DNA of 64,000 nt from Deltaproteobacteria bacterium UBA5205 (GTDB lineage: Bacteria > Desulfobacterota > Syntrophorhabdia > Syntrophorhabdales > Syntrophorhabdaceae): the NCBI GenBank assembly GCA_002412715.1, contig DHVP01000004.1, positions 8,707 through 72,706 on the forward strand. Direction: 5' to 3'. The stretch's first letter is position 1. Each line of letters opens with the position of its first letter. The notes beneath the pieces are model-generated. The model saw only the letters and a list, made by a program, of their open reading frames with translations. It was not told where the DNA came from and made no database searches. This document shows positions 16,596 through 31,224 of this stretch, in pieces. A program made the translations under genes and the position numbers.

Positions 16596-17231
16596 TTAAT
16601 TTGTAATAAACACCTTGTGTTTTTCCAGGATCTGTTTGAACTCTTTGCTCTTCCTGAGGTTGTTGATATCCGGGTCCTTTCTCAGGCTGTCGTAGTCGTT
16701 GAAACCCTTGGAAAGGGCCGCGTCGAGTTCGTCCAGACCGTAATCGGTGTTCCCCATAAGTGAATGAACGGAGGCGAGGTTGTACCGGATTGTCGCGCTG
16801 TCAGGTTTCAATTCCTTGGCTTTCTTGAGGTCGTCAAGTGCCTTGTTGTTCTTCTTCTGAAGCATGTAGGCCACTGCCCTGTTCGAATAGGCTTCGGCGT
16901 AGTTCGGGTCTTTGTTGATAGCGTTGGAGAATTCCGCGATAGCGTTGTCCAGGTTTTCGTTGAAGACGGACTTGGACGTGGCATTTTTCGCGATACTCAC
17001 ATAGCTCATACCCTGTTTCAGATGGGCCTTGACCTCCTGGCCCGGTCCCGATTCAGGTTTTTTGGCTTCGGGTCCGGCGGCTTCAGGTTTTTGCTCCTGT
17101 GCCTGCGGCGCGGGCTGCTGAGGCTCGGCCTTTGGCTGCGGTTTTGACCAGGGTAGCTTGTCGCATCCCATTCCCATAAGTCCCAGGGAAACCAGGACAG
17201 TTATGCTGACAACTGCAATCCATTTCCTCAT
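16596..17231 (-). CDS. TPR-repeat lipoprotein (last gene of the caspase operon)
   Basis: Lipobox LMGMGCDK, a Pro/Gln/Glu-rich linker, then TPR units (AEAYSNRAVAYMLQKKNNKALDDLKKAKELKPD). Confidence 0.75.
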   Translation of the reverse strand: MRKWIAVVSITVLVSLGLMGMGCDKLPWSKPQPKAEPQQPAPQAQEQKPEAAGPEAKKPESGPGQEVKAHLKQGMSYVSIAKNATSKSVFNENLDNAIAEFSNAINKDPNYAEAYSNRAVAYMLQKKNNKALDDLKKAKELKPDSATIRYNLASVHSLMGNTDYGLDELDAALSKGFNDYDSLRKDPDINNLRKSKEFKQILEKHKVFITN

Positions 17232-17264
17232 CTATCGATCCTCCTCCTTATTTAAATATCAAGG

Positions 17265-18512
17265 TTACTTTTTAATGCGCATGTTCCAGTTGTCGCTTGT
17301 TGCCATTGCCTGCGGCGTCTGACTGATCTCGGCGCCTTTCTCCTGTTTGACCCGTTGAGAGACAAGGGGTTTTGAATAGGTGAAGGCTTCTTTGACGGAA
17401 CCGTTGTACCTCTTCAATCCGTCAACAAAATAGTACGTGAAGACGCTGTTCTTGAGGCTGTCGGATTCCCAGGATTTCTCGCCTGCGCTGCTGGCGGACA
17501 GGAGTACTTTGCCGTAGCCGTCCTGGTTGTCGATACTCTTGCCGGCGCTGGCGGTCTTCTTCGGCGCTTCGTCGAGCACTATGTCTTTTGAGCCGAACAG
17601 TCGTTTCCCCTGGTCCTTTGAAATACCGTATCCCTCGTCCTCATCGGCCCCAAGAGACTTGCCTCCGGGAGGCAAAAAGCCCGGGATGGATCGGTAAGCA
17701 CCATTGCTGTAGCAGGTGTCAAGGATCATGACAAGCCGTTTGGCCCTCAGGCTCTCGACGAAGTCCTTGAGCATGTTTTCGGTCACGGCCGTATGCCAGA
17801 CGCGTTCGCGGGGCTTTACCTCCGTATCATAGGTCACGATATGGACGCCCCCGAACTTGTCGGGTGGCGTACCGTGGCTGCTCATGTAGATGACTACCAG
17901 GTCGTCGGGACCGGCAACGTTCTTGATTGTGTTGAGATATTTCATGATGTTGTCCCGCGTTGCGGTCTGGTCCGTAAGGTAATAGACGTTGCTCCGGGGG
18001 AATGCGGCTCCCTGGGGATTTACGATGAAGCTGTAGAAACTCGACGCATCCCTGACGGTGTATTGCAGCGTCTGAATACCATTTTTGAATTGTCCCACAC
18101 CGACAACAAGGGCGTAGCGGTTCCGTACTGAACCGGGTGCACCCTCAGACCCTGTTTCCTTGAGGACGCGGGCGCGGCTGAAAAGGCTCCCGATCCTCTT
18201 TTCCCATTCCTTTACCTTAATGTTGTCCGGTGTTACCGGTGAAACCCACTTGACCCCGACAACCGTCTGGGCGAGAGAGAAGGCAAGGTCGACCTGCCTG
18301 TCGTCCTCATAGCCCCCTTTCAGTTGAACCCGTCCGTATGAGTCAAGTTCAGCGAATCCATTTGCTATCCTGTTCTGTTTGAAACTGTTATTGATACCGT
18401 TCAGGTGGCCCTGGGTCACCGGTGAATTATCCGCAAAAAGGGAGTATTCTCCGGCCAGAAGAAAGACCAGGAGAAATGCACTTATTAATAATGATACGCG
18501 CGGTTTCATCAT
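17265..18512 (-). CDS. Secreted caspase-like cysteine protease (peptidase C14) with a BON-like N-terminal domain
   Basis: Signal peptide MMKPRVSLLISAFLLVFLLAG. BON-like RVQLKGGYEDDRQVDLAFSLAQTVVGVKWV. Caspase His/Cys pair in VIYMSSHGT and MILDTCYSNG. Confidence 0.8.
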   Translation of the reverse strand: MMKPRVSLLISAFLLVFLLAGEYSLFADNSPVTQGHLNGINNSFKQNRIANGFAELDSYGRVQLKGGYEDDRQVDLAFSLAQTVVGVKWVSPVTPDNIKVKEWEKRIGSLFSRARVLKETGSEGAPGSVRNRYALVVGVGQFKNGIQTLQYTVRDASSFYSFIVNPQGAAFPRSNVYYLTDQTATRDNIMKYLNTIKNVAGPDDLVVIYMSSHGTPPDKFGGVHIVTYDTEVKPRERVWHTAVTENMLKDFVESLRAKRLVMILDTCYSNGAYRSIPGFLPPGGKSLGADEDEGYGISKDQGKRLFGSKDIVLDEAPKKTASAGKSIDNQDGYGKVLLSASSAGEKSWESDSLKNSVFTYYFVDGLKRYNGSVKEAFTYSKPLVSQRVKQEKGAEISQTPQAMATSDNWNMRIKK

Positions 18513-18514
18513 CC

Positions 18515-19348
18515 CTACCTCATGACGGACCTGCCGGCCGTTTTCTGAAGCATCGAAACCTCTTCGATAACGAGTACAGTCTCGACGCGGTATGATCCCG
18601 GCTGATTCACGAGGGCGTGGATACGGTCGGTGTTGGGTACGAAAGTTGTTGCCTTCCGGACGGTGAGTTCGCGCTCTATCATATCCGATTTGCCTTCGGC
18701 GTTGACGATAAAAGCGATCTTGTACCGGCCTTCAGGTACGTCCTTGGGGATATCGAAGTTGCCGTCGGCGGTCCTGGTACCCGGAGCAGCGGTAACCTGC
18801 TGATCTACCTGTCCCAGATCCACGAATTCATTCTTGGACGGATCGAAGTACTTGACGATACGGGTCTCCGTCACCTTTATTTCAGTGCGATCGGGTGGCG
18901 CCATCACATAGTAGGAGCCGTTCAGCTTCACGGAACCGCCCTGGCCGACCGATGCCGGACTCACGTTAAAGCTCTGGATCTTTACAACTTCTCCCTGGGA
19001 CTGGTTGTAGCCAACCTTCCGGGCTGTTTCCTGATACCCCGCGGCAGGCTGACTCTTCAGTGTCGAATACAGCGAAAGGCATTTGCCCCAGGCGTAAGCG
19101 AACCCTATACCGCCCCCGATTGCGGCGCCGATACCGGCCCCCTTCCAATCTCCACCGATTAGTCCACCGATAAGGGCACCGCCGAGGGCTCCTCCAACGG
19201 TATGGAGGGCTATACATTGATTTCTCGCTCTGATGCGGTCTTCTTCGGTCTTTATGTCATCGGGGTTGGGCAGCATTGAAGCACAGGAGTAGAGAAAAAA
19301 CACCCCGATGAGTGCAATCGCGTATAGTCTTACCCGGTTTTTCTTCAT
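18515..19348 (-). CDS. Glycine-zipper lipoprotein, function unknown
   Basis: Lipobox FFLYSCAS and glycine zipper GGALGGALIGGLIGGDWKGAGIGAAIGGGIG, followed by a beta-rich C-terminal domain. Separated from the caspase start by 2 nt. Confidence 0.7.
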   Translation of the reverse strand: MKKNRVRLYAIALIGVFFLYSCASMLPNPDDIKTEEDRIRARNQCIALHTVGGALGGALIGGLIGGDWKGAGIGAAIGGGIGFAYAWGKCLSLYSTLKSQPAAGYQETARKVGYNQSQGEVVKIQSFNVSPASVGQGGSVKLNGSYYVMAPPDRTEIKVTETRIVKYFDPSKNEFVDLGQVDQQVTAAPGTRTADGNFDIPKDVPEGRYKIAFIVNAEGKSDMIERELTVRKATTFVPNTDRIHALVNQPGSYRVETVLVIEEVSMLQKTAGRSVMR

Positions 19349-19363
19349 GTCTTTAGTCTCTCC

Positions 19364-20227
19364 TTATCTGTGGTTCAACTTGATTTCGAGGGTGAGGATC
19401 TTGCCGTCCTCTATGTAGGATGCAGGCACAACGCCGAAATTTTCGCCCCCACGGGATTCAAGAACGATGTCTTTTTTGCCCTTGGGCTCAGGTTTCCAGC
19501 CGTTTTTCGGCGAGATAACCGAGTAGCTCGTTCTGTTCGAATCTTCAAGCGTGATGTCCTTGCCGCCTGCCAGAGATGCCGTCATGACTCCGGGGGGAGG
19601 GGGCGGCGGGATGTTTGCCACGTCTGCCTGTCCGGGAGGCGGCGGGGGAGGAAGTGCTGCACTTGCGTCGGCCACAGGAGGCGCTGACGGTGCCTGTGCC
19701 ATGGTCTGGCCACCCTGCACGGGCGCTCCCATGGGGTTCGGGCTTCCCGAGAGCATAACAAGGAGCTTTTCCGTGCCGGGGGCTCCGGAGAACCTGAAAT
19801 TCCCGGCCTTGGGGATCTCTACCATGCTGCCCGGCTCTGCCTGTTCGCTGTAAAGAACTGTAGTATTACCCGAGGTCCCTATGTTCATTATCGTAAGATA
19901 ACCAGGTTTGTTGGTCCTGACGAGAAGTTTCAGCCGTTCGCCGGAACGGAATGTCCTGGACCGGGGAACGATATCGAACCTGCCGTCGTCGCGAAGAAGA
20001 ACAAGTTTGTAGGAGATGCCGACATACTTTTCCTTTGCCGGAGCCGCCGCCGTCTGGGTGGCAGGTTTTACCGACCCCGAGCCTGAAGACATCCGAACCG
20101 CGGGGCCTTCGCCGCTGTCAAAGATGGCTTTTGCTCCTGTCGGCGCTTTTGTCTGGGCCTGGGCGCCGGAACATACGACAAGGATTGTTACAAGAACAAC
20201 GATCAAGATTGAAGGCAATGATTTCAT
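19364..20227 (-). CDS. Secreted DUF4384-like domain protein with proline-rich linker
   Basis: Signal peptide ending CSGAQAQ. DUF4384-like FRSGERLKLLVRTNKPGYLTIMNIGTSGNTTVLYS (recognised from memory of the family). Two PPPPPP tracts. First gene of the operon. Confidence 0.65.
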   Translation of the reverse strand: MKSLPSILIVVLVTILVVCSGAQAQTKAPTGAKAIFDSGEGPAVRMSSGSGSVKPATQTAAAPAKEKYVGISYKLVLLRDDGRFDIVPRSRTFRSGERLKLLVRTNKPGYLTIMNIGTSGNTTVLYSEQAEPGSMVEIPKAGNFRFSGAPGTEKLLVMLSGSPNPMGAPVQGGQTMAQAPSAPPVADASAALPPPPPPGQADVANIPPPPPPGVMTASLAGGKDITLEDSNRTSYSVISPKNGWKPEPKGKKDIVLESRGGENFGVVPASYIEDGKILTLEIKLNHR

Positions 20228-20333: not shown

Positions 20334-20363
20334 AGTATAACTACAACCCCGAAATTTTGTCAA
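20334..20363 (-). promoter_or_regulatory. Candidate sigma70-type promoter for the caspase operon
   Basis: On the minus strand: TTGACA (20363-20358), an 18-nt spacer, then TATACT (20339-20334). This gives a leader of about 100 nt to the start at 20227. Confidence 0.4.
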
Positions 20364-20420: not shown

Positions 20421-20450
20421 TTGACAATCCATGCGTCTCACCGATATATT
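20421..20450 (+). promoter_or_regulatory. Candidate sigma70-type promoter for the 2057-aa protein gene
   Basis: TTGACA (20421-20426), an 18-nt spacer, then TATATT (20445-20450). The leader contains an AAAGGCAAA...TTTGCCTTT hairpin (20457-20499). Confidence 0.4.
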
Positions 20451-20568
20451 GCGTGAAAGGCAAAGGGTACGTTCTAAGAGTATCCGTCGTTTTGCCTTTC
20501 GGCAGATTGAGCCGCCACGGATTTAATACGAACCTCACATATCACGGACGTTCAGGAAGGGAGATCGC

Positions 20569-23500
20569 ATGCGCATTCCAGGATCGTTGAGAACGAAATT
20601 TTCAGCGTCAATTCTTTGTCTTTTTCTTCTTTTACCAGCCTTGCTTTTCGCCGTATCCGTTCCGCCGCAAACGCTTGTCAGCAATGCGATGGATGGCGTT
20701 CTCCTGGACATGGGCAATCCCTTTCTCAAGGTCATCAAACAGGGATCATGGATATCGGGTGAGAAGTACCGCAACCCCCTGACGAATCTCCTCGATCCTT
20801 CCGACCACGACGCACGGTTGTTCATTTCGCTCGACGATGTGCCGCCCGAGCGGGCCCGGGAGGTTTGGAAGGCCTACCAGGGACGCCTCAGGAAGAAGAT
20901 ATTCGCGATGGCGCAGAACGCGGGGTACAGCACGGATGAGATACAATTACTCCTCAAATCGGTCAACTTCTATCCCCCCTCACAACTCCTGAAGGGAATA
21001 GGGCAGAATGAAGAGGCGATCGCCAAATTCCTGAAGATGGGCAACTACCCCAACCTCCTGGAAGTTGGTGAAGAGGCGGCGGAGGGGCTCTATACGACGC
21101 CCACGAAGTTCATCCGCCAGGGCTACGAGACAGGGGCACGAGTCCAGGTCGCAGAGCTTGCCGCCGACGAGGGATCGGACGCATATCGCATTGTACACAA
21201 GGCGACCGCCGAGGCGGAGCACGCGGCGGAGGTAGTCGGTGAGGCCAACCTCAAAGGATATGTGCAATCCGCGGAGTACTCTCTGAACGAGGCGCAGAAG
21301 GCGTTAAACGAGGGCAAGCTCGATACCGCGAAGAAGAACCTTCAGCGGGCGAAGGACCGCATGAAAAGCGCCCGGAAACTTGGCGGGGTCAGCGCCGAGG
21401 GCGGTGCCGTAAAGGAACTCGACGCACTGGAGAGCCAGGTCGATGATGCCATCAAGCTTGCCTTTGAATCAGCGGACGATGCGAAGGCAATGCTTGGCAA
21501 GACGAAGCAGCTGGCAAACAAGCTTGGCGGTGAGGTCATGAAAAAGACCAGCGTCGACCTTGCTGCCCTGGAGGCGATGGGGCTCAAGAATTCGGTGAAG
21601 CAACGCGCATTCCTCAAAGGAGTTCTGGAGGGGGAGGGCAAGTGGGCGACGCTCAGGGTGAATCTTGAAGAGGCATCGGGCAGCGCGCTGACGACCCTGC
21701 GAAGCGGTGCCAGGCTGGCCTATAAAAACTGGTTCATGTCGCTTATCGCCCTGTGGGAGCTCAAGGAGTTCCCGGCAGCAATTGAAAAGGAGGGCGTAGC
21801 CAAAGCGAGCGCCCGGCTGGCGGCGACCGTCGCAGGCCTTATAAACCCGACCTTCGGTTATGCCCAGCTTTTCAGCGTGATCTTCATGACCACCGGGGAA
21901 CTTCTCGTGGACTGGATCAGCTCCTACGGCTACGTCGCCGTTGTGGGCAGACAGGACTGCATGGACCTCATCGCCGGTATCTACACGGTCCCCGGAAGGG
22001 AACAGAACATCGAAGGGAAAGAATGTGAGCAGATCCAGAGTGACGGGCAACTCGCGTGCCGGATCTACGATTCGAAGGGACTCAGGAGAGATCTGGCGGC
22101 GGGACGGAAGTTCAACCAGGAACTGATACCGCCTTTCATGATCTCCCTTCTGAACTGCCATGCGAAGGCGGCATCGAAACACTACGACGACTACGAATCC
22201 ATGCACGATGAGGGTGTTCAGCAGGCCCTGGTCAACAAGTGCCTCCAGCCGGTCCTGAAGACCTGGCTCGACAGCCGCCAGCTTGTTGTCAACGAGGTAG
22301 ACGCGCTGCGTCAGGGCATGGAGGAGCAGTCCGTGAGGGTCATGGCCGCTCCCTCCCGTTTGAAGGAGAAGGGTACGGTGAGGCTCTCCGCGGACGATTC
22401 ATCGAGCATTGCGGGGATCGAGAGGGACATCGAGGAGAAGGCAAAGTGCCTTGGCGGGGTCCATGCAAAACCCCGTTCGGGCCGCGACTATATATGGACG
22501 GTGAACGGCAGGGAGTTCAGGAAGGATTACAACAGGAACACCGCCGAGCTTTCCCTCGATACGCCCGGCAGCTACGAGGTGTGTGCCGCCGTTCACTATA
22601 CGTGGCGCATCGACGGTCTCCCCATCGTTTCACTGGAGGACGGGCTCTCGGGCAAGGGGGTCAGGACAGGGTGTGTGACGGTGGTCGTTGAGCTGCCGCC
22701 CGATGAGAAGAAGCCTGAGGATGCGAAGAAACCCGAGACCCCACCACCCGCCGACCCTCTCACCAGTGTGAAGAAAGAGCCTCCAGTGGACGTAAAAAAG
22801 GCGCCGCCGACATGCTCCTACGAATATTCCGCCTGGGGCGAATGCGGCCGGGAGACGAAGAAACAGACGCGAACGGTGACGGCGAAGAAGCCCGAAGGCT
22901 GCGTGGAAAAGAGCAAGCCATCGCTCGAACAGGGGTGTACTCCGCCTCCGACGAAAAGTGAACTGGATTCCCGGTATTACAACTGCCTTTGCCGCTGTTA
23001 CTCCGGCTGGGCGGGACACATCGGCGTATGGTGGGACCCTGAAGGGAAGTCCATACCGGAGGCCCCGAGCAGCGGTCCCTGTTTCGGCGGGGCTGGAGCC
23101 TTCGGTGCTACGAGAAGGCATGGCTTCGGGCCTCCCAACGATTGCGCCAAAGGATGCTGGGAAGGCGCCTACGGTAAGGGGACCTGGGACCAGAAGAAAG
23201 CCGATGAAATGAGAAGGGAAGAGAACAAGAAGCACAAGAAACCTCTCAAGGTAAAGCTCAACGCATCGAAGAACCCTGCTGATTTTGGCGATATCGTGAT
23301 CCTTACCGCGGAGGCGATCGACGGGACCGCAGGATACAAATATACGTGGGGCGGCTGTGCGCAGGACGCGAAGGACAACAAGGCGAAGGTACTCAACAGC
23401 ATGCAATGCAAGCCCTGCACGGCATCCGTTACCGTAACGGACCAGGATGATGAAAGCGCTTCCGCCTCCGTCACGATCCAGTGTACCGCTCTTAAGGTGA

Positions 23501-26500
23501 AGCTCACCAAGGAGAGCCCGAAGGAAGACGCTATCCCCATCGGCGGCAAGGCCACGTTCCGAGCCGAGGTTTTCTCCGGCGACAAGCCGGCGAGCGGTTC
23601 ATTCACCTACCTCTGGGAGCGGAACCCCGACGTGCTGTTCGGCGACCCAAAGAACCCGAAATATGAGACCACAGGGGGTTCCACGGCGCGGAACTCCGCT
23701 TCTTTCGGAAAGCCGGCAGCGACTCCGGTGTGGGTCGTGGTGCTGCGCGAGGTCGAAGGGCGCAAGATGACCGTCGGCGAGTCGGAGAGGATCATGATCC
23801 AGGTGGTCAAGCCCAAACTGAGCCTCAAGGCCGAGCCACAGGACCCGCTTGTCGGCCAGCAAGTGAAGATCACCCTCACCGAGGAACCGAAACTGGATGA
23901 TCAGACGGTCTCCTATTGGTGGGAGATAGCGGGCAACACGCAAAACTCAGGACCCGAGAGGGACCAGCGCATTTACACATACAAACCGAAAGATGACAAG
24001 CCCGTGACGGTCACCGTTCACGCGAAGGCGAAGGATGGTGGAGAGGAGATCGGCGTCGAGAAGATCACCATCTCCGCGAAGAAACCGACTGTTACCGTGA
24101 CGGGCCCGAAGATAGCCGGGCCGCCCCCCATGATCTGGAAGGAAGGCGTCGGGCTCGTGCCGGCGGACCGCCAGATAGCCGAACATCAGCGCGTGGAGTT
24201 TTCTGTCGCGGTGACCCCTGCTGGCGCCCAGCAGTTGCGCTACCAGTGGACAGTTGCACCCGAGGGGTGCAGCATCTCCGCCCCCTCTTCAAAGGAAACG
24301 GGTGTGACGTGCAGCAAGACCGGTGCCTATACGATGACCTGTGCGGTGAAGAGCGCCGAGGGCGCCGACCTCGGCAGCGGCACGGGATCGTTGAGCGTCA
24401 CCATATCCCAGTCCGATATGTCGGGGGCCAAGAAGAAGGATGAGGCGAAAAAGAAGCTCGATTCAGCGAAACAGCTCTGGTCCCAGAAGAAATACGACGA
24501 AGCGATTGCTGCGGCCGAGGCAGCGGCGCAGGTCGATCCCAAGCTTGCCGCGCCCGTCCTTAACCAATTCTCCCAGGAACTGAAGAAGATGGGTTGGGAC
24601 GCCCTGAACAAGGCTGACCACACGGAAGCAATAAAACGTCTTGAGCAGGCAGTGAAGTTGAACCCCGCCGATGCCGACGCAAAGAAGAAGCTGGAGGAGG
24701 CGAAGAAGTATGCCGCAGTGTGGCCGCGCGTCGAGGCAAAGGCAAAGGAATTCGACGCCTTTATCGCCCAGAAGAAGGTATGGTCGGCGCAGAAGGCAAT
24801 GCTCGAGATGCAGGACATACTGCGCGGCCAATCCGGCGGCCAGTCGTCGACGAATCCCCTCTGGACCAGGGTGATGGCGGATTTCAACAAGGGGGTTGCC
24901 TGGTACAACGATTTTTCTCAGAAGAGCAACGCCGAGTGGACCAGACTTTTCAAGGCTGAGGACTGGGAAAAGGCCGAAGCGCATATCAAGCAAGTCATGA
25001 CACAGGAGCTTTCTCCTGCCGACCAGAAACATTATGCATCCGCCCTCCAGACGACGCAGACGATGCTCGGGATGAAAAAAGAATCGATGCAGTACTACGA
25101 GACTGCAAAGGCCAATTTCGTGAAAGGCCAGCCCGCCGACGCCAACGGACTTGCCGCCGTCGCGAAGGAACTCAGGAACAAGGCGGCACGATTCAAGGAA
25201 GGCGACGCCCGGCGCACGCAGATCACGGAGCTTGCGGCGGCGATGGAGAAGAAGCAGAAGGGTGTCAACGCAAAGGCATACGCACAGAGCTTCTTCAACA
25301 ACGGCGATCAGTATTACCGTTCGAACAATTTCGAGCCTGCCGTGAAGCAATATGACGAGGGGCTTAAAGCCATCAGGGAAAACGGAGACGTGAAGGATCC
25401 GGACTACGCAAAGTATATGAAGCTCCGGGAAGACGCTGCTCAAAAGGACAAGCGTTTCAAGGAGCTTTACGCATACGCCGCAGGGCTTGCCGCAACCACG
25501 AAGCCCCTTGACGAAGAAACCATTAAGAAGGGCATAGCCTCGGCCGAAGAGGGGCTCAAGATCCGTCCTCGCAACGGCGATATGGAGATCCACTGGAACA
25601 AGCTGAAGTGGAAGCTCGGCGAGCTGAAGAACGCCATTGCAAAGAAACAGGATGAGCAGCGTAAGTGCGAGGCGAAGTGGATCGAGGGCCAGGCGCTTTA
25701 TAATGCCGGGAAACACCCCGAGGCCCTGGCGAAGTTCAAGGAGAACATGGCCTGCGCACCGGGGAACAAGGAACGCGAGACGTATATCCGGCAGCTCGAG
25801 GATGCTCTCAGGAAACAGGTGGCCGCCAAACAGGCATGTCTTGCGCTAAGACAGCAAGGCGACGCCTTCGTGCAGCAGAAACAATATGCCGCGGCGGTGA
25901 CAAAATACCGGGAGAGTTTGAAATGCCAGCCCGACCCGAAGCTGGAGGCCTATATACGCCAGCTCGAAGGCGAGATGAAAAAGCAGGCCGATGCCCAGGC
26001 AAACGCAGCGCGAGCTACTCAATTGCGCGCTGAAGGCACCCAGCTGCAGAATCAGAAACGCTATGCCGACGCCATCGCGAAATACCGGGAAAGCCTGCGT
26101 TATCTCCCGGACAAGGCGTTGGAACAGCACATCGTTCAACTGGAAGGGCAGCTCAAGAAAATGAATGACCAGCAGGCAGTACAGACCCGCGCGAAAGCGC
26201 TGCGTGATGAAGGCGCGTCGCTTCAGAAGCAGAACAAAGTCCGCGACGCCATCGCCAAATACCGGGAGAGCCTGAGGTATGTGTCCGACCCGCAACTGGA
26301 GGCCCACATCGTCAAACTCGAGTCAAGTCTGAAATCGACTCCGGCCGCCCCGACATCGAGCCCGACAACAGCCGCGACGGGAAGCCAGGCGTCGGCTGCA
26401 GCTGGTTCCTGGGCAGGCACCTGGAAGAGCGTGGCCGGTCCCGAGGGTGAGACGATCAACTTTGTACTTACTTCGAGCGGTAACCGCATTAACGGCACCT

Positions 26501-26742
26501 TTTCCGTTGCCGTCCCTTACAAAACTTCCTCGGGTGCACGCAAGACGGAGACGCTTGGCGGCCCCCTGGAGGGAACCGTGTCGGGCAACAGGGCGAAAGG
26601 CACCTTTCGCGAATCCAGTGACGCAAAACACGCAGGGACCTTTGATTTTATCATGGCATCCGGCGGCAACCAGTTCAGCTGTACCGTACGGGCCACCGAT
26701 GGTGGAGACAGCAGGTCCTATACGGTGCGACGGACGAAGTGA
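20569..26742 (+). CDS. Giant secreted multidomain protein (2057 aa): unknown N-terminal region, Cys-rich module, PKD/Ig-like repeats, TPR-like modules, C-terminal beta domain
   Basis: RBS GGAAGGGAG and signal peptide ILCLFLLLPALLFA. Four Ig-like units carry a Y-x-W signature (YKYTWGG, FTYLWERN, VSYWWEIAG, LRYQWTVAP). The C-terminal half has many TPR-like helices. Confidence 0.85.
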   Translation: MRIPGSLRTKFSASILCLFLLLPALLFAVSVPPQTLVSNAMDGVLLDMGNPFLKVIKQGSWISGEKYRNPLTNLLDPSDHDARLFISLDDVPPERAREVWKAYQGRLRKKIFAMAQNAGYSTDEIQLLLKSVNFYPPSQLLKGIGQNEEAIAKFLKMGNYPNLLEVGEEAAEGLYTTPTKFIRQGYETGARVQVAELAADEGSDAYRIVHKATAEAEHAAEVVGEANLKGYVQSAEYSLNEAQKALNEGKLDTAKKNLQRAKDRMKSARKLGGVSAEGGAVKELDALESQVDDAIKLAFESADDAKAMLGKTKQLANKLGGEVMKKTSVDLAALEAMGLKNSVKQRAFLKGVLEGEGKWATLRVNLEEASGSALTTLRSGARLAYKNWFMSLIALWELKEFPAAIEKEGVAKASARLAATVAGLINPTFGYAQLFSVIFMTTGELLVDWISSYGYVAVVGRQDCMDLIAGIYTVPGREQNIEGKECEQIQSDGQLACRIYDSKGLRRDLAAGRKFNQELIPPFMISLLNCHAKAASKHYDDYESMHDEGVQQALVNKCLQPVLKTWLDSRQLVVNEVDALRQGMEEQSVRVMAAPSRLKEKGTVRLSADDSSSIAGIERDIEEKAKCLGGVHAKPRSGRDYIWTVNGREFRKDYNRNTAELSLDTPGSYEVCAAVHYTWRIDGLPIVSLEDGLSGKGVRTGCVTVVVELPPDEKKPEDAKKPETPPPADPLTSVKKEPPVDVKKAPPTCSYEYSAWGECGRETKKQTRTVTAKKPEGCVEKSKPSLEQGCTPPPTKSELDSRYYNCLCRCYSGWAGHIGVWWDPEGKSIPEAPSSGPCFGGAGAFGATRRHGFGPPNDCAKGCWEGAYGKGTWDQKKADEMRREENKKHKKPLKVKLNASKNPADFGDIVILTAEAIDGTAGYKYTWGGCAQDAKDNKAKVLNSMQCKPCTASVTVTDQDDESASASVTIQCTALKVKLTKESPKEDAIPIGGKATFRAEVFSGDKPASGSFTYLWERNPDVLFGDPKNPKYETTGGSTARNSASFGKPAATPVWVVVLREVEGRKMTVGESERIMIQVVKPKLSLKAEPQDPLVGQQVKITLTEEPKLDDQTVSYWWEIAGNTQNSGPERDQRIYTYKPKDDKPVTVTVHAKAKDGGEEIGVEKITISAKKPTVTVTGPKIAGPPPMIWKEGVGLVPADRQIAEHQRVEFSVAVTPAGAQQLRYQWTVAPEGCSISAPSSKETGVTCSKTGAYTMTCAVKSAEGADLGSGTGSLSVTISQSDMSGAKKKDEAKKKLDSAKQLWSQKKYDEAIAAAEAAAQVDPKLAAPVLNQFSQELKKMGWDALNKADHTEAIKRLEQAVKLNPADADAKKKLEEAKKYAAVWPRVEAKAKEFDAFIAQKKVWSAQKAMLEMQDILRGQSGGQSSTNPLWTRVMADFNKGVAWYNDFSQKSNAEWTRLFKAEDWEKAEAHIKQVMTQELSPADQKHYASALQTTQTMLGMKKESMQYYETAKANFVKGQPADANGLAAVAKELRNKAARFKEGDARRTQITELAAAMEKKQKGVNAKAYAQSFFNNGDQYYRSNNFEPAVKQYDEGLKAIRENGDVKDPDYAKYMKLREDAAQKDKRFKELYAYAAGLAATTKPLDEETIKKGIASAEEGLKIRPRNGDMEIHWNKLKWKLGELKNAIAKKQDEQRKCEAKWIEGQALYNAGKHPEALAKFKENMACAPGNKERETYIRQLEDALRKQVAAKQACLALRQQGDAFVQQKQYAAAVTKYRESLKCQPDPKLEAYIRQLEGEMKKQADAQANAARATQLRAEGTQLQNQKRYADAIAKYRESLRYLPDKALEQHIVQLEGQLKKMNDQQAVQTRAKALRDEGASLQKQNKVRDAIAKYRESLRYVSDPQLEAHIVKLESSLKSTPAAPTSSPTTAATGSQASAAAGSWAGTWKSVAGPEGETINFVLTSSGNRINGTFSVAVPYKTSSGARKTETLGGPLEGTVSGNRAKGTFRESSDAKHAGTFDFIMASGGNQFSCTVRATDGGDSRSYTVRRTK
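25663..26334 (+). repeat. Four tandem ~56-aa TPR-like modules inside the giant gene
   Basis: Repeating unit ..A..YRESL(K/R)(C/Y).PD..LE..I.QLE..LKK. The similarity is visible at DNA level (aaataccgggagag... occurs three times). Confidence 0.75.
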
Positions 26743-27860: not shown

Positions 27861-29219
27861 GTGACGGGCGGAGGCCGCACCCGGTATGCGCTTGTCCCGC
27901 TGGCTGCGGTTGTCCTTGCCTATCTCAACTCCTTCCAGGGGGTATTCCAGCTCGATGACTACAACGTCATTGTCTTCAACCCCGCCGTCCACTCCTGGTC
28001 CGCCTTCTGGCAGGACTGGTTCCACGGGATACGCCCGCTCCTCAAGCTGACCTATACCCTTAACTGGAGCTCACCGGCAGGGACGTTCGGGTTCCATGTA
28101 TTCAACCTGGCTGTGCACCTGGCGAACACTCTCCTGATTTTTAACCTTACCGCATATTTTTTCAGAGAAGGTCGTGAGGCCCTGCCGGTGAAGACACTGT
28201 ACATGACTGCCTGCCTGACGGCACTTATCTTCGGATTGCATCCCATCCAGACCGAGGCGGTGACATACATAAGCGGACGCAGCGCGTCGCTGATGTCAAT
28301 GTTCTATCTGGGAAGTCTTGCCGCCTACATCAAAGGCACCCGGGAGAGTAGGCCCGTCTGCCTCTACCTTCTTTCCCCGTTGCTCTTTCTCCTTGCTGTG
28401 GCGACAAAAGAGACGGGTATTACCCTGCCGTTCGCCATGGTGCTCTGGGAAGCCGCCGCAGGGCGGCGCGCCGGTTTTAAAAGGGCGCTCGGGAACCAGT
28501 CGGTCCACTGGATGCTCCTGGGGGTGCTGGCTGCAGCCGTCCTCGCCCATCCGCGCTACCGCCTGTTTCTCCTTTACAGTCTCAACCTCAGAGGATTCCA
28601 GGAGAACCTTCTTGGCCAGATAAACGGGGCGGCCCACCTGCTTTCGCACGTGGTCATGCCGGGTCGGCTCAATGTCGATCCCGGCACTTTGCCTCCCGTT
28701 GGCTGGTTCTCGGTAGAATCGCTCACTCTTGTCTGTATCGCGGCGCTGGCTGCTGTCGGGATATGGAAAAAGAGGTCCTGGCTCTTTTTCGGCACAGCAT
28801 GGTTTCTCCTGCACATGATGGTGATAAATGTCCTTATCCCGCGCATCGACAGTGTCAGCGACCGTCATTTCTACCAGGCAAGCTGGGGGATCTTTCTGGT
28901 TGCCGGCGGCGCCATAGGGTGGCTCTTTCTTCGTTTCCCCGGAGGCAGCCGATGGTTCATAACCGTGGTGGCCGGAGTCTCCATCCTTCTCGGTGGCTAC
29001 ACTGTTACCCGTAATTGCGTGTACAAGAGCGAGATCGCCCTGTGGGAGGACACCGCCAGAAAATCGCCTCAGAACCCCAGGGCGTACAATAACCTAGGCT
29101 ATGCCTATGCTCTGAAGGGGCGCAAGGCCGACGCACGCGATGCCTACCGGCATGCCCTCGAGATAGACCCCGCCTTCGAACACGCCCGCAACAACCTGAA
29201 AATGCTCGACAAGCAATGA
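27861..29219 (+). CDS. TMTC/PMT-like GT-C family glycosyltransferase with C-terminal TPR repeats
   Basis: GTG start 3 nt after the upstream stop. First-loop motif FQGVFQLDDYNVIVFNPAV resembles the F-x-DD motif of TMTC/PMT O-mannosyltransferases. About 10 TM helices. C-terminal TPR PRAYNNLGYAYALKGRKADARDAYRHALEIDP. Confidence 0.7.
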   Translation: MTGGGRTRYALVPLAAVVLAYLNSFQGVFQLDDYNVIVFNPAVHSWSAFWQDWFHGIRPLLKLTYTLNWSSPAGTFGFHVFNLAVHLANTLLIFNLTAYFFREGREALPVKTLYMTACLTALIFGLHPIQTEAVTYISGRSASLMSMFYLGSLAAYIKGTRESRPVCLYLLSPLLFLLAVATKETGITLPFAMVLWEAAAGRRAGFKRALGNQSVHWMLLGVLAAAVLAHPRYRLFLLYSLNLRGFQENLLGQINGAAHLLSHVVMPGRLNVDPGTLPPVGWFSVESLTLVCIAALAAVGIWKKRSWLFFGTAWFLLHMMVINVLIPRIDSVSDRHFYQASWGIFLVAGGAIGWLFLRFPGGSRWFITVVAGVSILLGGYTVTRNCVYKSEIALWEDTARKSPQNPRAYNNLGYAYALKGRKADARDAYRHALEIDPAFEHARNNLKMLDKQ

Positions 29220-29291: not shown

Positions 29292-29954
29292 CTATTGCTC
29301 ATCCCGATAACGGGCCATCTGTTTTTCTGTCAACACCTCGGAGAGGCGCTTCGTCATGGCTTTTTCGACATCCGCGAGTTCAGAGTTTACGGCGGCGAGA
29401 TCGGGATGGTCCATTTTTTCATACTTCCCGATGATGAGCGCTCGTTTGTTCTTCTGATCTTCCAGGATGGATGCGACCTGCGATTGCTGCGCGGGATCGA
29501 GGTTCAGGCGGTCCTTCAGCGTCGCGGCATCGGGAAGGCCATTCTGCGCAGTGTTCAACAATCTGAAGTAATAGGAAGTGTATCTCCGGGAAAACCTTTC
29601 CTGCCTCGCCTGCAGCCTGGTCTTCTGTTCGTCATTAAGCTTCTCTTTTATGAGTTCAAAATTCCGAACGTAAACCTTCTTGAGACTTGGCTCATAGGAC
29701 GCCCTGACACCTGTCGCCTTTGCCTCCGTCATTGTGAGTATCTTATGGATCTCGGCCTGCTGCCCGGTATCGAGATTGAGGTCAACGGTGAGCTTTTTCA
29801 TGATCTTCTTCACCCTGTCCTCGGCACTGCGTGACCTGTCGGCCCGGGATCCATCCAACTGGTGATTGAGGTATATCCGCGTCCCCAGTGAGCCGGCGAA
29901 GATCCCTACCAGCAGGACGAGCACCAACGTGACGATGATCTTTATCTTGTCCAT
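29292..29954 (-). CDS. Periplasmic Spy/CpxP-like (LTxxQ-repeat) protein
   Basis: N-terminal anchor/signal MDKIKIIVTLVLVLLVGIFAG. Repeated L(N/T)xxQ motifs (LNLDTGQQ, LNDEQKTRLQ, LNLDPAQQ, LTEKQMARY). Start taken at the ATG at 29954. Confidence 0.6.
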   Translation of the reverse strand: MDKIKIIVTLVLVLLVGIFAGSLGTRIYLNHQLDGSRADRSRSAEDRVKKIMKKLTVDLNLDTGQQAEIHKILTMTEAKATGVRASYEPSLKKVYVRNFELIKEKLNDEQKTRLQARQERFSRRYTSYYFRLLNTAQNGLPDAATLKDRLNLDPAQQSQVASILEDQKNKRALIIGKYEKMDHPDLAAVNSELADVEKAMTKRLSEVLTEKQMARYRDEQ

Positions 29955-29967
29955 GGTATCTCTCCTC

Positions 29968-30291
29968 TTAACCATTGTCATCCAGAAGGACCAACTCGAC
30001 GGTGTCGTCGGCCACAATCCGGGCGAAATACTGATCGGCGGTCACATCATAGCGGTATACGGCAACGGCAAGAAATATGATGATCGCACATGCCACGGGG
30101 CAGATTCGCCAGAACATCTTCCCGAACATATCCGTCCAGGCGGGGGCCTCCGACGCGTCCGCGATGCGGCCTATGCTGTTCATGACCCCCATTTCCCATG
30201 AGTTGCCCGGTTCGGGCCCCCCGCGGCTCTTGTGCGTGGCGGCGAGGGCCTTTTCGAGCCTTTTGAGTTCCTCTTCCTTCAGGGATTTCAT
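29968..30291 (-). CDS. Putative single-pass anti-sigma factor
   Basis: 107 aa with one TM segment (ICPVACAIIIFLAVAVY). Lies 15 nt downstream of the ECF sigma gene. The call rests on position and topology only. Confidence 0.5.
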   Translation of the reverse strand: MKSLKEEELKRLEKALAATHKSRGGPEPGNSWEMGVMNSIGRIADASEAPAWTDMFGKMFWRICPVACAIIIFLAVAVYRYDVTADQYFARIVADDTVELVLLDDNG

Positions 30292-30305
30292 ATGACATGC
30301 CTCCT

Positions 30306-31067
30306 TTATTTCCTGCCGGCATCTTTAAGGAGCTTACGAAGCCTGTTGCGCGACCGGAAAGAACGAATCTTCACGTTTGCCGTGCTCCATCCGAGCAGAT
30401 CGGCTGTTTCCCGCACCGATAACCCTTCCATGTAGACGAGTTCCAGCACCATGCGATCTTCCGGTGTCAATCTGGCCAATGCCCAGTCAAGTACTTCCCG
30501 TGCCTCGATCTGCCTTCCGATATCATCCAGCGACCCCCCGGACGACTCGGACAGGGTATACTCGATCCATTCGCGGTGCTGGTCGCCGAGGGAACTCATG
30601 GTCACCTCTTTCGATCGATAGGCGCGTCTCCAGTAGTCGTAGCAGGTTCGTGTCGCAATCGCCGCGATCCAATGTCTGAATCCTTCGGGCCCGCTGAACT
30701 TCGCAAGAGACTCCCAGACCCGTATGAAGGCGTCATGAGCCACCTCTTCGGCGTCCTCATAGGGGATATGGCGATTTACGATCTTAAAGACATACATTTT
30801 GTATTTCTTGAGAAGAAAGGCGAAGGCGTTCCTGTCCCCGTTGAGGACGCGGGTTATATATGCGGCGTCGGAGGACGCATGTTCGTCCTGTTCAATATGA
30901 TCAACCACGGCGGATACCCATACAGGTCTGTTATAACAAAGCTGACCGGCCAGGGCAAGCTCCATATCCAGGGGCCGCCGACCCATCGGCGGGTTTACCG
31001 CCGTGTGAGCCCTCGATCTTGTTTCGCAAACGCCTTCCACATTCTCTCCATCACGGAGCCTTTTCAC
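30306..31067 (-). CDS. ECF-type RNA polymerase sigma-70 family factor
   Basis: Region 2 (EEVAHDAFIRVWESL, FRHWIAAIATRTCYDYWR) and region 4 (LSVRETADLLGWSTANVKIRSFRSRNRL). The GTG at 31067 has an AAGGAG RBS. Internal starts at 30965 (ATG) or further downstream would give a more typical ECF length. Confidence 0.85.
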   Translation of the reverse strand: MKRLRDGENVEGVCETRSRAHTAVNPPMGRRPLDMELALAGQLCYNRPVWVSAVVDHIEQDEHASSDAAYITRVLNGDRNAFAFLLKKYKMYVFKIVNRHIPYEDAEEVAHDAFIRVWESLAKFSGPEGFRHWIAAIATRTCYDYWRRAYRSKEVTMSSLGDQHREWIEYTLSESSGGSLDDIGRQIEAREVLDWALARLTPEDRMVLELVYMEGLSVRETADLLGWSTANVKIRSFRSRNRLRKLLKDAGRK

Positions 31068-31084
31068 CTGCTCCTTTTCCTCTT

Positions 31085-31113
31085 AAGTCGTACCATCCGC
31101 AAAAAAGGTTACA
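31085..31113 (-). promoter_or_regulatory. Candidate ECF-type promoter (TGTAACC-N16-CGACTT) for the sigma operon
   Basis: Minus-strand TGTAACC (31113-31107), a 16-nt spacer, then CGACTT (31090-31085). The same motif pair occurs in mirror image at 31234-31262. Confidence 0.4.
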
Positions 31114-31122
31114 AGAAGATGA

Positions 31123-31224
31123 GAAGATAGGTAATAGGTAATAGGTGATGGGTAATGGGTAAAACGAGAAACAAAAAAAGAGTCCTTCCTATAACCCATT
31201 ACCCATCACCTATTACCTATCTTC
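31123..31224. repeat. Long imperfect inverted repeat built from AT(A/G)GGT(A/G) heptamers
   Basis: Left arm gaagATAGGTAATAGGTAATAGGTGATGGGTAATGGGT (31123-31160). Right arm is its reverse complement minus one heptamer (31194-31224). The loop is about 33 nt. Confidence 0.8.

What the first reader, a model, noticed from the sequence alone, without database searches (positions are those of the whole stretch)
20569..26742. 2057-aa secreted mosaic protein of unknown function
This single ORF has a good RBS and a cleavable-looking signal peptide. Its first ~740 aa are helical/coiled and match no family I can name. A lysine/proline linker follows (PPDEKKPEDAKKPETPPP), then a Cys-rich module. Next come four PKD/Ig-like units with a recurring Y-x-W signature (about 23250-24415) and about 640 aa of TPR-like helices (about 24420-26340). 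An S/T/P linker (STPAAPTSSPTTAATGS) leads to a small beta-rich C-terminal domain. The combination of adhesin-like Ig repeats with a large TPR scaffold, and its neighbours (caspase operon upstream, Ig protein and GT-C glycosyltransferase downstream), suggest a cell-surface assembly not described to my knowledge.
Basis: partly seen in the sequence, partly recalled or inferred. Interest (0 to 1): 0.65.

Follow-up and report, generated by a model that had tools for sequence, protein, structure and literature searches.

The report
Exported giant protein with uncharacterised, enzyme-like head
This is a real, strongly conserved 2057-residue exported protein whose N-terminal third belongs to an unnamed protein family with a nucleotidyltransferase-like motif, and whose gene always sits next to an exported caspase-type protease cluster; what it does remains untested.

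Summary
The ORF 20569-26742 (+) is real. It has a Shine-Dalgarno site, a conserved promoter, and dN/dS of 0.07-0.2 in every segment. First, there are five Ig/PKD-like units, not four. Second, the N-terminal 740 aa are not just helical filler. Residues ~30-650 define an unannotated family of about 150 clusters at 50% identity, spread over several phyla. The domain is always N-terminal, usually follows a signal peptide, and is followed by variable Ig/TPR modules.

AlphaFold models the first 270 residues with pLDDT 94. No solved structure matches significantly. Eleven residues are invariant in 108 sequences. They include G59-S60, S78-D79-x-D81, K256 and R260. This motif aligns in register with the catalytic GS/DxD motif of OAS1, Cid1, PAP and kanamycin nucleotidyltransferase, but only weakly (hhalign probability 21-37%). 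The third catalytic carboxylate is replaced by Asn or Ser.

Every ortholog with readable flanks lies beside an exported four-gene module: DUF4384, Gly-zipper lipoprotein, orthocaspase and TPR lipoprotein. The module is divergent in Syntrophorhabdaceae and co-directional in Betaproteobacterial and unassigned loci. The module itself usually occurs without this protein.

Most likely this is an envelope-resident enzyme-like scaffold that partners the protease module. The function, surface exposure and GT-C neighbour remain unproven.

The parts
20421..20450 (+). Sigma-70-like promoter of the large gene (TTGACA-18-TATATT)
   Evidence: It matches 11 of 12 consensus positions. Both hexamers are invariant in 9 Syntrophorhabdaceae loci, while the spacer as a whole is only 53% identical.
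20334..20363 (-). Divergent sigma-70-like promoter of the DUF4384/caspase operon (TTGACA-18-TATACT)
   Evidence: It matches 11 of 12 consensus positions. The blocks GTAGTATAAC and TTTTGTCAA are invariant in 9 loci.
20555..20563 (+). Shine-Dalgarno sequence GGAAGGGAG, 5 nt before the ATG
   Evidence: Read directly from the sequence. The GGAGGG/GGGGGA core is kept in the orthologous loci.
20569..20658 (+). Signal peptide (aa 1-28/30)
   Evidence: Basic n-region followed by the only hydrophobic stretch in the protein. A hydrophobic N-terminus is present in 82% of 108 family members. Cleavage is inferred, not predicted with a dedicated tool.
20659..21258 (+). Alpha/beta core of the family domain (aa 31-230), nucleotidyltransferase-like. 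It carries G59-S60, S78-D79-H80-D81, N133-x-Y135-P-P137, P161, E172-G173 and E187
   Evidence: G59, S60, S78, D79, D81, Y135, P137 and P161 are invariant in 108 sequences; G173 is 99% conserved and E187 96%. The AlphaFold model has pLDDT 94 and the order helix, strand, GS, short helix, strand (DxD), helix, strand. Profile alignments to OAS1, Cid1, PAP and KNTase are in register. The top BFVD match is a Pol-beta-type nucleotidyltransferase domain protein.
21259..22128 (+). Helical part of the family domain (aa 231-520). It begins with a three-helix bundle (aa 228-301) carrying invariant K256 and R260. It ends with the motif Q462-D-C-x-D-L-x-x-G470-I-Y-x-V-x-G-R-E
   Evidence: Conservation. Helices. 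MIT-like three-helix matches have probability 0.98 but E 0.3. The two moderately hydrophobic helices at aa 385-460 are not transmembrane-grade.
22129..22443 (+). Conserved Cys-containing extension of the family domain (aa 521-625)
   Evidence: Covered by the family profile in most long members. C530 and C558 are invariant among close orthologs.
22444..22695 (+). Ig/PKD-like unit 0 (aa 626-709, motif YIW at aa 641)
   Evidence: The same stretch matches 10-12 tandem repeats in two unrelated proteins, P0131 and P0149. It also matches the later PKD units of this protein.
22696..22812 (+). Lys/Pro-rich linker (aa 710-748)
   Evidence: Read from the sequence. Its length and sequence vary among orthologs.
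22813..23253 (+). Two Cys-rich modules and a conserved basic motif. A thrombospondin-repeat-like module (aa 749-790) is followed by CLCRC...GWAGHIGVW...CAKGCWEG (aa 806-884). The basic motif is ENKKHKKPL (aa 885-895)
   Evidence: PTN_MK_C matches at 23.3 bits, below the 25.3 cutoff. The Cys pattern and the EN[KR]K[HF]K motif are conserved in orthologs at 41-75% identity.
23254..24417 (+). Four PKD/Ig-like units (aa 896-1283), with Y-x-W at aa 925, 1014, 1116 and 1225
   Evidence: Pfam PKD matches the last unit above its cutoff. Internal profile matches come and the motifs.
24418..26334 (+). TPR-like helical region (aa 1284-1922), including four ~58-aa repeats at aa 1700-1922
   Evidence: Pfam TPR_2, TPR_11 and TPR_16 match. 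Repeats were found by segment BLAST with E 1e-9 to 1e-17. This is the most variable part among orthologs, at 52-90% identity.
26335..26742 (+). Ser/Thr/Pro linker (aa 1923-1944), small C-terminal domain (aa 1945-2057) and stop codon
   Evidence: Read from the sequence. No family matches; there is only a weak Cadherin-like hit at E 0.018. It is not conserved in the more distant orthologs P0007-P0010.
19364..20227 (-). Exported DUF4384 protein, first gene of the partner module
   Evidence: Pfam DUF4384 at 40.6 bits. Signal peptide seen. Adjacency to the large gene is conserved.
18515..19348 (-). Gly-zipper lipoprotein
   Evidence: Weak Gly-zipper_YMGG match. The N-terminus ends in ...FLYSC. Synteny is conserved.
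17265..18512 (-). Exported orthocaspase (peptidase C14) with the His213/Cys267 dyad
   Evidence: Pfam Peptidase_C14 at 66.4 bits. Signal peptide seen. The dyad is invariant in orthologs down to 58% identity.
16596..17231 (-). TPR lipoprotein, last gene of the four-gene module
   Evidence: Pfam TPR families match. The N-terminus ends in ...GMGC. Synteny is conserved.
27861..29219 (+). Polytopic membrane protein with a C-terminal TPR.
   Evidence: Only TPR is detected. It lies downstream in most Syntrophorhabdaceae loci with readable downstream flank. A 46-49% homolog directly follows the caspase module in L036-L041.

Best explanation
The gene encodes a Sec-exported, envelope-resident multidomain protein of a Syntrophorhabdaceae bacterium.

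**Conserved head (aa ~30-650).** It belongs to an unnamed family. Its alpha/beta core most likely derives from the Pol-beta-type nucleotidyltransferase fold, of the OAS/PAP/Cid1 kind. G59-S60 and D79/D81 would hold a divalent metal and a phosphate-containing ligand. K256 and R260, on the adjoining helical bundle, would contact the phosphates. Because the third carboxylate is Asn or Ser in the aligned members inspected, the chemistry may not be classical two-metal nucleotidyl transfer. It could be ligand binding or a phosphodiester transfer.

**Rest of the protein.** Five Ig/PKD units act as a spacer. About 640 aa of TPR-like helices form a protein-docking platform.

**Partnership.** In this subfamily the protein works with the adjacent exported module (DUF4384 protein, Gly-zipper lipoprotein, orthocaspase, TPR lipoprotein). 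It is either a client docked through TPR contacts or a substrate cut at its Lys-rich inter-domain linkers.

**Shown:** gene reality, purifying selection, domain order, family membership, invariant residues, conserved adjacency and conserved promoters.

**Inferred:** export and signal-peptide cleavage, the nucleotidyltransferase relationship, ligand binding, the physical partnership, and any proteolytic processing.
For: **Gene reality.** dN/dS is 0.07-0.2 in all six segments against four orthologs. Orthologs at 73-95% identity occur in 12 Syntrophorhabdaceae-type genomes. The promoter hexamers are invariant in 9 loci.

**Family.** Exhaustive HMMER finds 150 cluster representatives, 96 of them at E<=1e-10. 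The domain is always N-terminal. The C-terminal parts vary: PKD, TPR, CarboxypepD_reg, PEGA and Big_1.

**Enzyme-like core.**
- Eleven residues are invariant in 108 sequences.
- The AlphaFold model has pLDDT 94.3 and pTM 0.89, with the secondary-structure order of a nucleotidyltransferase core.
- hhalign places GS and SDxD on the catalytic GS and DxD of human OAS1 (probability 21%, P 1e-3).
- Against a 106-sequence OAS1 alignment the probability is 37% and P is 3.6e-4.
- Cid1, KNTase and Pap1 align in the same register at P 0.01, 0.016 and 0.054. Nine unrelated control proteins give P 0.16-0.84 on arbitrary segments.
- The best BFVD structural match is a 'Polymerase nucleotidyl transferase domain-containing protein' (probability 0.89, E 0.026).

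**Export.** The N-terminus is hydrophobic and no other transmembrane-grade segment exists. The protein carries Cys-rich and PKD modules typical of extracytoplasmic proteins.

**Partnership.**
- The caspase module is adjacent in every ortholog of >=47% identity with readable flanks.
- It is divergent in Syntrophorhabdaceae.
- It is co-directional, with gaps of 9-93 bp, in L012, L013, L087, L102 and L105.
- All four module proteins carry signal peptides or lipoboxes.
- Orthocaspases cut after basic residues (PMC6426788, found). A basic motif EN[KR]K[HF]K is conserved between two domains of the large protein.
Against: **Against a nucleotidyltransferase core.**
- No significant structural match to any solved structure despite a confident model. 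The best PDB matches have E 0.3-0.5, and the tRNA nucleotidyltransferase hits have probability <0.1 and TM ~0.2.
- HMMER finds no nucleotidyltransferase family in Pfam, NCBIfam, PADLOC or PDB sequences.
- The hhalign probabilities are below 50%.
- cGAS and DncV do not align.
- The position of the third catalytic carboxylate is Asn or Ser, never Asp or Glu, in the 22 aligned members.
- NTPs are not expected in the periplasm (general knowledge).

**Against an obligate partnership.**
- The caspase module occurs without this protein in 14 of 17 fully assessable loci.
- More distant family members (26-41% identity) have unrelated neighbours.

No expression, localisation or interaction data exist.
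Confidence: 0.4

Rival explanations
1. It is a purely structural surface adhesin or envelope-layer protein, as the first reader leaned towards. The Ig/PKD stalk and TPR region mediate adhesion or aggregation. The conserved N-terminal domain is a non-enzymatic anchoring or assembly module.
For: - The protein is large, has a signal peptide and five Ig-like units.
- The layout of a conserved N-terminal module plus variable C-terminal passenger-like modules resembles N-terminally anchored adhesins.
- The genomic surroundings are envelope-related: SLT-LysM, MacAB-TolC and a polysaccharide island.
Against: - No adhesin, S-layer, SLH, RTX, autotransporter, LPXTG, PEP-CTERM or T9SS signal was found.
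- There is no beta-barrel or transmembrane anchor.
- Absolute invariance of small polar and charged residues (GS, SDxD, K, R) across 108 sequences is more typical of a ligand or catalytic site than of an anchor.
Confidence: 0.2
2. The N-terminal domain has a genuinely new fold, and its GS/DxD pattern resembles nucleotidyltransferases only by convergence or chance. It binds a metal or some other envelope ligand. The protein is mainly a substrate or regulator of the exported orthocaspase.
For: - The model is confident yet has no significant neighbour in the PDB.
- The third carboxylate is missing.
- The profile similarity is confined to ~50 residues around the motif.
Against: - Four of six independent nucleotidyltransferases align in the same register, while none of nine controls does.
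- The top BFVD hit is a nucleotidyltransferase.
- The secondary-structure order matches the nucleotidyltransferase core.
Confidence: 0.25
3. It is a secreted toxin or effector. A nucleotidyltransferase-like toxic head is delivered outside the cell, the Ig/TPR modules bind the target, and the neighbouring caspase activates it by cleavage.
For: - Nucleotidyltransferase-fold toxins exist (general knowledge).
- The protein has a signal peptide, Lys-rich linkers and an adjacent protease.
Against: - The conserved domain is N-terminal and its sequence is stable, unlike polymorphic toxins.
- No immunity-like small gene is conserved next to it in any context.
- No dedicated secretion system is linked across phyla.
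- dN/dS is uniformly low, with no diversifying segment.
Confidence: 0.07
4. The adjacency to the caspase module has no functional meaning. A gene block was inherited or transferred together, and the large protein acts independently of the module.
For: - The module usually lacks this protein.
- Distant family members lack the module.
Against: - Adjacency survives an inversion of relative orientation between Thermodesulfobacteriota and Betaproteobacteria, at only ~50% protein identity.
- In five loci the genes are co-directional with short gaps, as in an operon.
- In Syntrophorhabdaceae the two promoters are back to back and conserved.
Confidence: 0.25

Closest known systems
Pol-beta-superfamily nucleotidyltransferases of the OAS / poly(A) polymerase / Cid1 / kanamycin nucleotidyltransferase type (Pfam PF01909 and relatives)
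   Same: - The G-S turn after strand 1 and the S-D-x-D motif at the start of strand 2 align in register.
- The order of secondary-structure elements is helix, strand, helix, strand, helix, strand.
- A helical bundle carrying invariant Lys and Arg follows the core, as in the PAP/OAS1 layout. That comparison rests on general knowledge.
   Different: - No significant sequence or structure match.
- The GS-to-DxD spacing is 18 residues rather than ~10-13.
- The third carboxylate is Asn or Ser.
- The domain is exported behind a signal peptide, whereas these enzymes are cytosolic.
Giant Ig-repeat envelope proteins with an N-terminal conserved module, such as inverse autotransporters of the intimin/invasin type
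   Same: A signal peptide is followed by a conserved N-terminal module, a run of Ig-like units and a variable C-terminal end.
   Different: - The N-terminal module is alpha/beta plus helical, not a beta-barrel.
- There is no LysM and no family match.
- Surface exposure is not shown.
Periplasmic TPR scaffold proteins of envelope machineries (BcsC, PelB, PgaA, NlpI, PilW/Tgl-type lipoproteins)
   Same: It has a long TPR-like helical region in an exported protein. It lies next to TPR lipoproteins and near a polysaccharide island.
   Different: - There is no C-terminal porin and no lipobox.
- No linked synthase is conserved across phyla.
- The TPR region is the least conserved part.
Prokaryotic orthocaspase / metacaspase-like (peptidase C14) systems
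   Same: The neighbouring protease has the p20 His-Cys dyad. DUF4384 and TPR are known companions of bacterial caspase homologs; DUF4384 turns up in papers on bacterial and cyanobacterial caspase homologues, though those papers were not read.
   Different: - All four module proteins are exported. Described systems are treated here as cytoplasmic, which rests on general knowledge.
- A fixed four-gene exported module, with or without this large protein, was not found in the papers searched.

Membership tests
Pol-beta-type nucleotidyltransferase fold (PF01909-like) | hG[GS] motif in the turn after strand 1 | tested here: met
   G59-S60 are invariant in 108 sequences. They lie directly after strand 1 of the model.
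Pol-beta-type nucleotidyltransferase fold (PF01909-like) | [DE]h[DE]h motif on strand 2 (two metal-binding carboxylates) | tested here: met
   S78-D79-H80-D81 has D79 and D81 invariant. The motif lies at the start of strand 2. It aligns to D75/D77 of OAS1.
Pol-beta-type nucleotidyltransferase fold (PF01909-like) | Third carboxylate (h[DE]h) on strand 3 | tested here: not met
   Strand 3 carries N133-x-Y135. The position is Asn or Ser in all 22 aligned members, never Asp or Glu.
Pol-beta-type nucleotidyltransferase fold (PF01909-like) | Significant structural similarity of the core to solved nucleotidyltransferases | tested here: inconclusive
   In the PDB, the best nucleotidyltransferase hits (3wfr, 3wfp) have E ~0.4, probability <0.1 and TM ~0.2. 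In BFVD, the top hit is a nucleotidyltransferase domain protein with probability 0.89, E 0.026 and TM 0.30-0.34.
Pol-beta-type nucleotidyltransferase fold (PF01909-like) | Profile match to a nucleotidyltransferase family | tested here: inconclusive
   HMMER finds none. hhalign gives 21-37% probability against OAS1, with four of six nucleotidyltransferases in register and none of nine controls.
Pol-beta-type nucleotidyltransferase fold (PF01909-like) | Metal-dependent nucleotidyl transfer activity | not testable with these tools
   This needs purified protein.
PKD domain (PF00801) | Profile match above the curated cutoff | tested here: met
   Residues 1202-1266 score 27.3 bits against a cutoff of 23.5. 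Four further units are recognised only by internal similarity and the Y-x-W motif.
Tetratricopeptide repeats (PF07719 and clan) | Profile match above the curated cutoff, in several repeats | tested here: met
   TPR_2 scores 54.6 bits against a cutoff of 27, in five stretches.
Characterised adhesin / S-layer / secretion-signal families (SLH, RTX, autotransporters, LPXTG, PEP-CTERM, T9SS C-terminal domain) | Any family-specific domain or sorting signal | tested here: not met
   Nothing appears in Pfam or NCBIfam at E<=1.
Thrombospondin type-1 / pleiotrophin-midkine repeat | Profile match above cutoff for the Cys module at aa 748-790 | tested here: inconclusive
   PTN_MK_C scores 23.3 bits against a cutoff of 25.3. 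Pleiotrophin chain 8voi_B matches at E 0.11.
GT-C glycosyltransferase (neighbouring gene 27861-29219) | Match of the membrane domain to a GT-C family | tested here: not met
   No Pfam family matches aa 1-400 even at E<=10. Only the C-terminal TPR is found. The FQLDDYNVIV motif recalls TMTC-type enzymes, but only from memory.
Peptidase C14 orthocaspase (neighbouring gene 17265-18512) | p20 domain with catalytic His and Cys | tested here: met
   Peptidase_C14 scores 66.4 bits. H213 (SSHG) and C267 (DTCYS) are invariant in orthologs.

The most novel reading that the evidence does not exclude
The conserved head is an active extracytoplasmic enzyme of nucleotidyltransferase ancestry that uses a non-classical donor. 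Together with the exported DUF4384 / Gly-zipper / orthocaspase / TPR module it forms an undescribed envelope processing or signalling system. In that system, caspase-type proteolysis and a phosphodiester or nucleotide modification both take place outside the cytoplasm.
Probability: 0.15. Interest if true: 0.8.

Novelty: new variant of a known kind. Interest (0 to 1): 0.55.

Why it matters
If the head domain is catalytic, it would define a family of about 150 clusters of exported nucleotidyltransferase-like proteins. These occur in Thermodesulfobacteriota, Pseudomonadota and Nitrospirota and have no annotation in any curated library.

Its fixed association with an exported orthocaspase would also help. 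That four-gene protease module is widespread, is not described in the papers searched, and acts outside the cytoplasm, so this protein would be its first candidate client.

For annotation, the work turns a 'TPR repeat protein' or 'hypothetical protein' into a defined domain with testable residues: G59, S60, D79, D81, K256 and R260.

Tried and rejected
1. **Word-indexed homolog search with the N-terminal 740 aa** gave only 5 hits, which suggested an orphan. Exhaustive HMMER overturned this. A repeat of the indexed search with the family alignment again returned only close relatives.
2. **HMMER against curated libraries and PDB sequences.** Pfam, NCBIfam, PADLOC and PDB sequences gave no informative match for the head domain with single sequences, 22 members or profiles.
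3. **Foldseek of the 491-residue model** was dominated by helical repeats. I re-modelled aa 30-301 alone. There was still no significant PDB match.
4. **A transmembrane hairpin at aa 385-460** was considered and rejected. The median maximum hydropathy is 1.1 for the first helix and 1.5 for the second, below transmembrane grade for most of the 108 members.
5. **The search for related loci with the diverse alignments A1 and A5** failed because no stretch was conserved enough.
6. **A conserved neighbourhood for the wider family** was sought in eight further loci and none was found.
7. **Adjacent paralogs** were sought with the family HMM and none was found.
8. **An Rfam match for the conserved 5' leader** was sought and none was found. 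The RNAalifold consensus is weak, at -3.3 kcal/mol.
9. **Self-BLAST of the whole protein** returned only the identity hit. Segment-wise BLAST was needed to find the repeats.

Full report
**1. The observation**

The ORF 20569-26742 (+) is the longest in the region and translates to 2057 residues without interruption. GGAAGGGAG lies 5 nt upstream of the ATG.

The N-terminus has basic residues and then the only strongly hydrophobic stretch in the protein, aa 7-38. This is consistent with a Sec signal peptide, though no dedicated predictor was available.

- the Lys/Pro linker at aa 710-727;
- the Cys-rich stretch at aa 749-863;
- Y-x-W motifs at aa 925, 1014, 1116 and 1225;
- the Ser/Thr/Pro linker at aa 1923-1939.

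Pfam confirms one PKD unit above its cutoff and several TPR stretches. Segment-wise BLAST finds four ~58-aa repeats at aa 1700-1922.

The gene is under strong purifying selection in every segment. dN/dS is 0.07-0.2 against four orthologs.

**2. Source organism and orthologs**

A scan of one genome per species found a 95%-identical copy in 'Deltaproteobacteria bacterium UBA5756'. It also found 73-83% copies in Syntrophorhabdus/Syntrophorhabdaceae genomes assembled from metagenomes, and ~50% copies in two Betaproteobacteria, one labelled Ideonella. Syntrophorhabdaceae belong to Thermodesulfobacteriota.

Several orthologs appear split into two or three genes. The neighbouring genes on those contigs are also fragmented, so these look like assembly frameshifts.

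**3. The N-terminal 740 residues are a family, not filler**

The word-indexed search gave only five hits. The exhaustive HMMER search of 1.84 billion representatives gave 150, of which 96 had E<=1e-10. In these proteins (750-2500 aa) the matching region is always N-terminal. 82% of 108 aligned members have a hydrophobic N-terminus.

None of 29 full-length members has any Pfam family over this region. Their C-terminal parts carry PKD, TPR, CarboxypepD_reg, PEGA or Big_1 modules. Source names are 'hypothetical protein' or 'TPR repeat protein'. Labelled members come from Syntrophorhabdaceae (including a 34%-identical paralog), Thermodesulfovibrionales, Syntrophobacterales and Betaproteobacteria.

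In a 108-sequence alignment, G59, S60, S78, D79, D81, Y135, P137, P161, K256, R260 and G470 are 100% conserved. W61, N133, G173, E187 and Q462 are nearly so.

Residues 626-709 are a fifth Ig-like unit. They match tandem repeats in unrelated proteins and the later PKD units of this protein.

**4. Structure**

AlphaFold on a 22-sequence alignment gave pLDDT 82 for aa 30-520. It gave pLDDT 94.3 and pTM 0.89 for aa 30-301. The order of elements is:
- a helix;
- strand 1;
- G59-S60;
- a short helix and a loop;
- strand 2, starting with S78-D79-H80-D81;
- a long helix;
- strand 3, carrying N133-x-Y135-P-P;
- further helices and a hairpin;
- a three-helix bundle carrying K256 and R260.

Foldseek against the PDB found nothing at E<=0.001. 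The best hits were MIT-like three-helix bundles for the C-terminal helices, and class-II tRNA nucleotidyltransferases with low probability. Against predicted viral structures, the top hit was a 'Polymerase nucleotidyl transferase domain-containing protein' (probability 0.89, E 0.026).

**5. Testing the nucleotidyltransferase lead**

The pattern 'GS, then SDxD on the next strand' is the signature of Pol-beta-type nucleotidyltransferases (general knowledge). I tested it with hhalign.

- Against human OAS1, the family profile aligns GS and SDHD onto the catalytic G-S and D75/D77. The probability is 21% and P is 1e-3. My typed OAS1 sequence proved 100% identical to a database entry annotated PF01909 + PF10421.
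- Against a 106-sequence OAS1 alignment, the probability is 37% and P is 3.6e-4.
- With a 108-sequence query profile, Cid1, kanamycin nucleotidyltransferase and yeast Pap1 align in the same register (P 0.01, 0.016, 0.054).
- cGAS and DncV do not align.
- Nine unrelated control proteins give P 0.16-0.84 on arbitrary segments.

This is consistent but weak support. A defining feature is also not met: the third carboxylate on strand 3 is Asn or Ser in the members aligned. I therefore say the core is 'nucleotidyltransferase-like' with about 60% confidence. I do not file it as a member of the family.

**6. Genomic context**

Upstream and divergent lie four exported proteins:
- a DUF4384 protein;
- a Gly-zipper lipoprotein;
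- a peptidase C14 orthocaspase with an intact His-Cys dyad;
- a TPR lipoprotein.

The 341-bp spacer holds two back-to-back promoter-like sites, each matching 11 of 12 consensus positions. Their hexamers are invariant in nine Syntrophorhabdaceae loci, although the spacer is otherwise only 53% identical.

By tblastn, the four genes flank the large gene in all Syntrophorhabdaceae loci. In the two betaproteobacterial loci they lie co-directionally just upstream, with gaps of 9-93 bp and unrelated genes on both sides. Three more co-directional cases were found: L087, L102 and L105.

Seen from the other side, the picture differs. A metagenome scan with the caspase alignment returned 80 loci, of which 51 have all four genes. 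Of the 17 with at least 3 kb on both sides, only 3 carry the large gene. The four-gene module is therefore the widespread unit, and the large protein is a facultative partner whose own orthologs always keep the module.

More distant family members (26-41% identity) have unrelated neighbours.

The downstream membrane/TPR protein is syntenic in Syntrophorhabdaceae. A 46-49% homolog directly follows the caspase module in another clade. Its GT-C identity is unsupported. The 328-aa protein is patchy and matches no family.

**7. Interpretation**

The best reading is an exported envelope protein. It has an enzyme-like or ligand-binding head, an Ig spacer and a TPR docking platform. In this subfamily it acts with the exported orthocaspase module.

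Orthocaspases cut after basic residues (PMC6426788). The Lys-rich linker at aa 710-748 and the conserved EN[KR]K[HF]K motif at aa 885-895 are candidate cut sites. This is inference only.

Still open are: surface exposure, catalysis, the nature of any substrate (NTPs are not expected in the periplasm), and a physical link to the module.

Rivals are a purely structural adhesin, a new fold with a convergent motif, a secreted toxin, and meaningless synteny. They are weighed in their own sections.

**8. Novelty and score**

The Ig and TPR parts are ordinary. New are three things: the unannotated head family, its possible descent from nucleotidyltransferases in an exported setting, and its strict association with an exported caspase-type module that I did not find described.

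I rate it a new variant of a known kind, with interest 0.55. It is a solid lead with testable residues, but without functional evidence.

Noticed in passing
window 16596-20227 (-); loci L025-L104: The four-gene exported module (DUF4384 protein, Gly-zipper lipoprotein, orthocaspase with intact His-Cys dyad, TPR lipoprotein) is itself widely conserved. A metagenome scan returned 80 loci at 57-98% caspase identity, and 51 of them carry all four genes in the same order. I did not find it described in the papers searched.
   Followed up: partly
window ~20476-20516 (+), 5' leader of the large gene: There is a conserved inverted repeat AAGGCAAA...TTTGCCTT in the ~120-nt leader. One locus (L009) appears to have compensatory changes on both arms (GGGGCGG/CCGCCC). 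There is no Rfam match, and the RNAalifold consensus is weak.
   Followed up: partly
window 15163-16416 (-): This gene has a weak class-III cyclase-like N-terminus and a cNMP-binding C-terminus. It lies between the GNAT gene and the TPR lipoprotein gene in some Syntrophorhabdaceae loci only (absent in L001, L006, L009, L018). The PADLOC hits to Pycsar components cover only the cNMP-binding part.
   Followed up: partly
window 36500-52600 (+): G+C drops from ~0.56-0.59 to 0.41-0.48 over a one-strand run of surface-polysaccharide genes. These include UDP-glucose dehydrogenase, a Wzy_C-type polymerase/ligase, three GT4 glycosyltransferases, asparagine synthase, an oxidoreductase and a heparinase II/III-like protein. 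This looks like an acquired polysaccharide island.
   Followed up: partly
window 22813-22938 (aa 749-790): A small four-Cys module (CSYEYSAWGEC...) resembles thrombospondin type-1 / pleiotrophin repeats. PTN_MK_C scores just below its cutoff and there is a weak hit to pleiotrophin chain 8voi_B. This is an unusual module in a bacterial protein, and it is duplicated in ortholog P0010.
   Followed up: no
L020 (contig NODE_2220, sample ERZ795030): Syntrophorhabdaceae carry a second, 34%-identical paralog of the large protein (P0013, 2338 aa). It lies head to head with another 2627-aa TPR/PKD protein and has no caspase module nearby.
   Followed up: no
L036-L041, about 12050-13360 in L036: In another clade, a 46-49% homolog of the membrane/TPR protein (window 27861-29219) directly follows the four-gene caspase module, with no large protein between them. 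This suggests the membrane protein may be linked to the module rather than to the large protein.
   Followed up: no
window 29292-36067: An LTXXQ-like protein, an ECF sigma factor and a HlyD/ABC/MacB/TolC-type exporter lie downstream. They are syntenic in most Syntrophorhabdaceae loci with readable downstream flank but absent next to the betaproteobacterial operons.
   Followed up: partly
L021 (GCA_036689865.1): A distant family member (P0046, 800 aa) sits in a cluster with a Gly-zipper lipoprotein, an FGE-sulfatase-domain protein, an ABC/FtsX pair and a protein with faint MG2/A2M-like hits. This hints at other envelope partners for the family.
   Followed up: no
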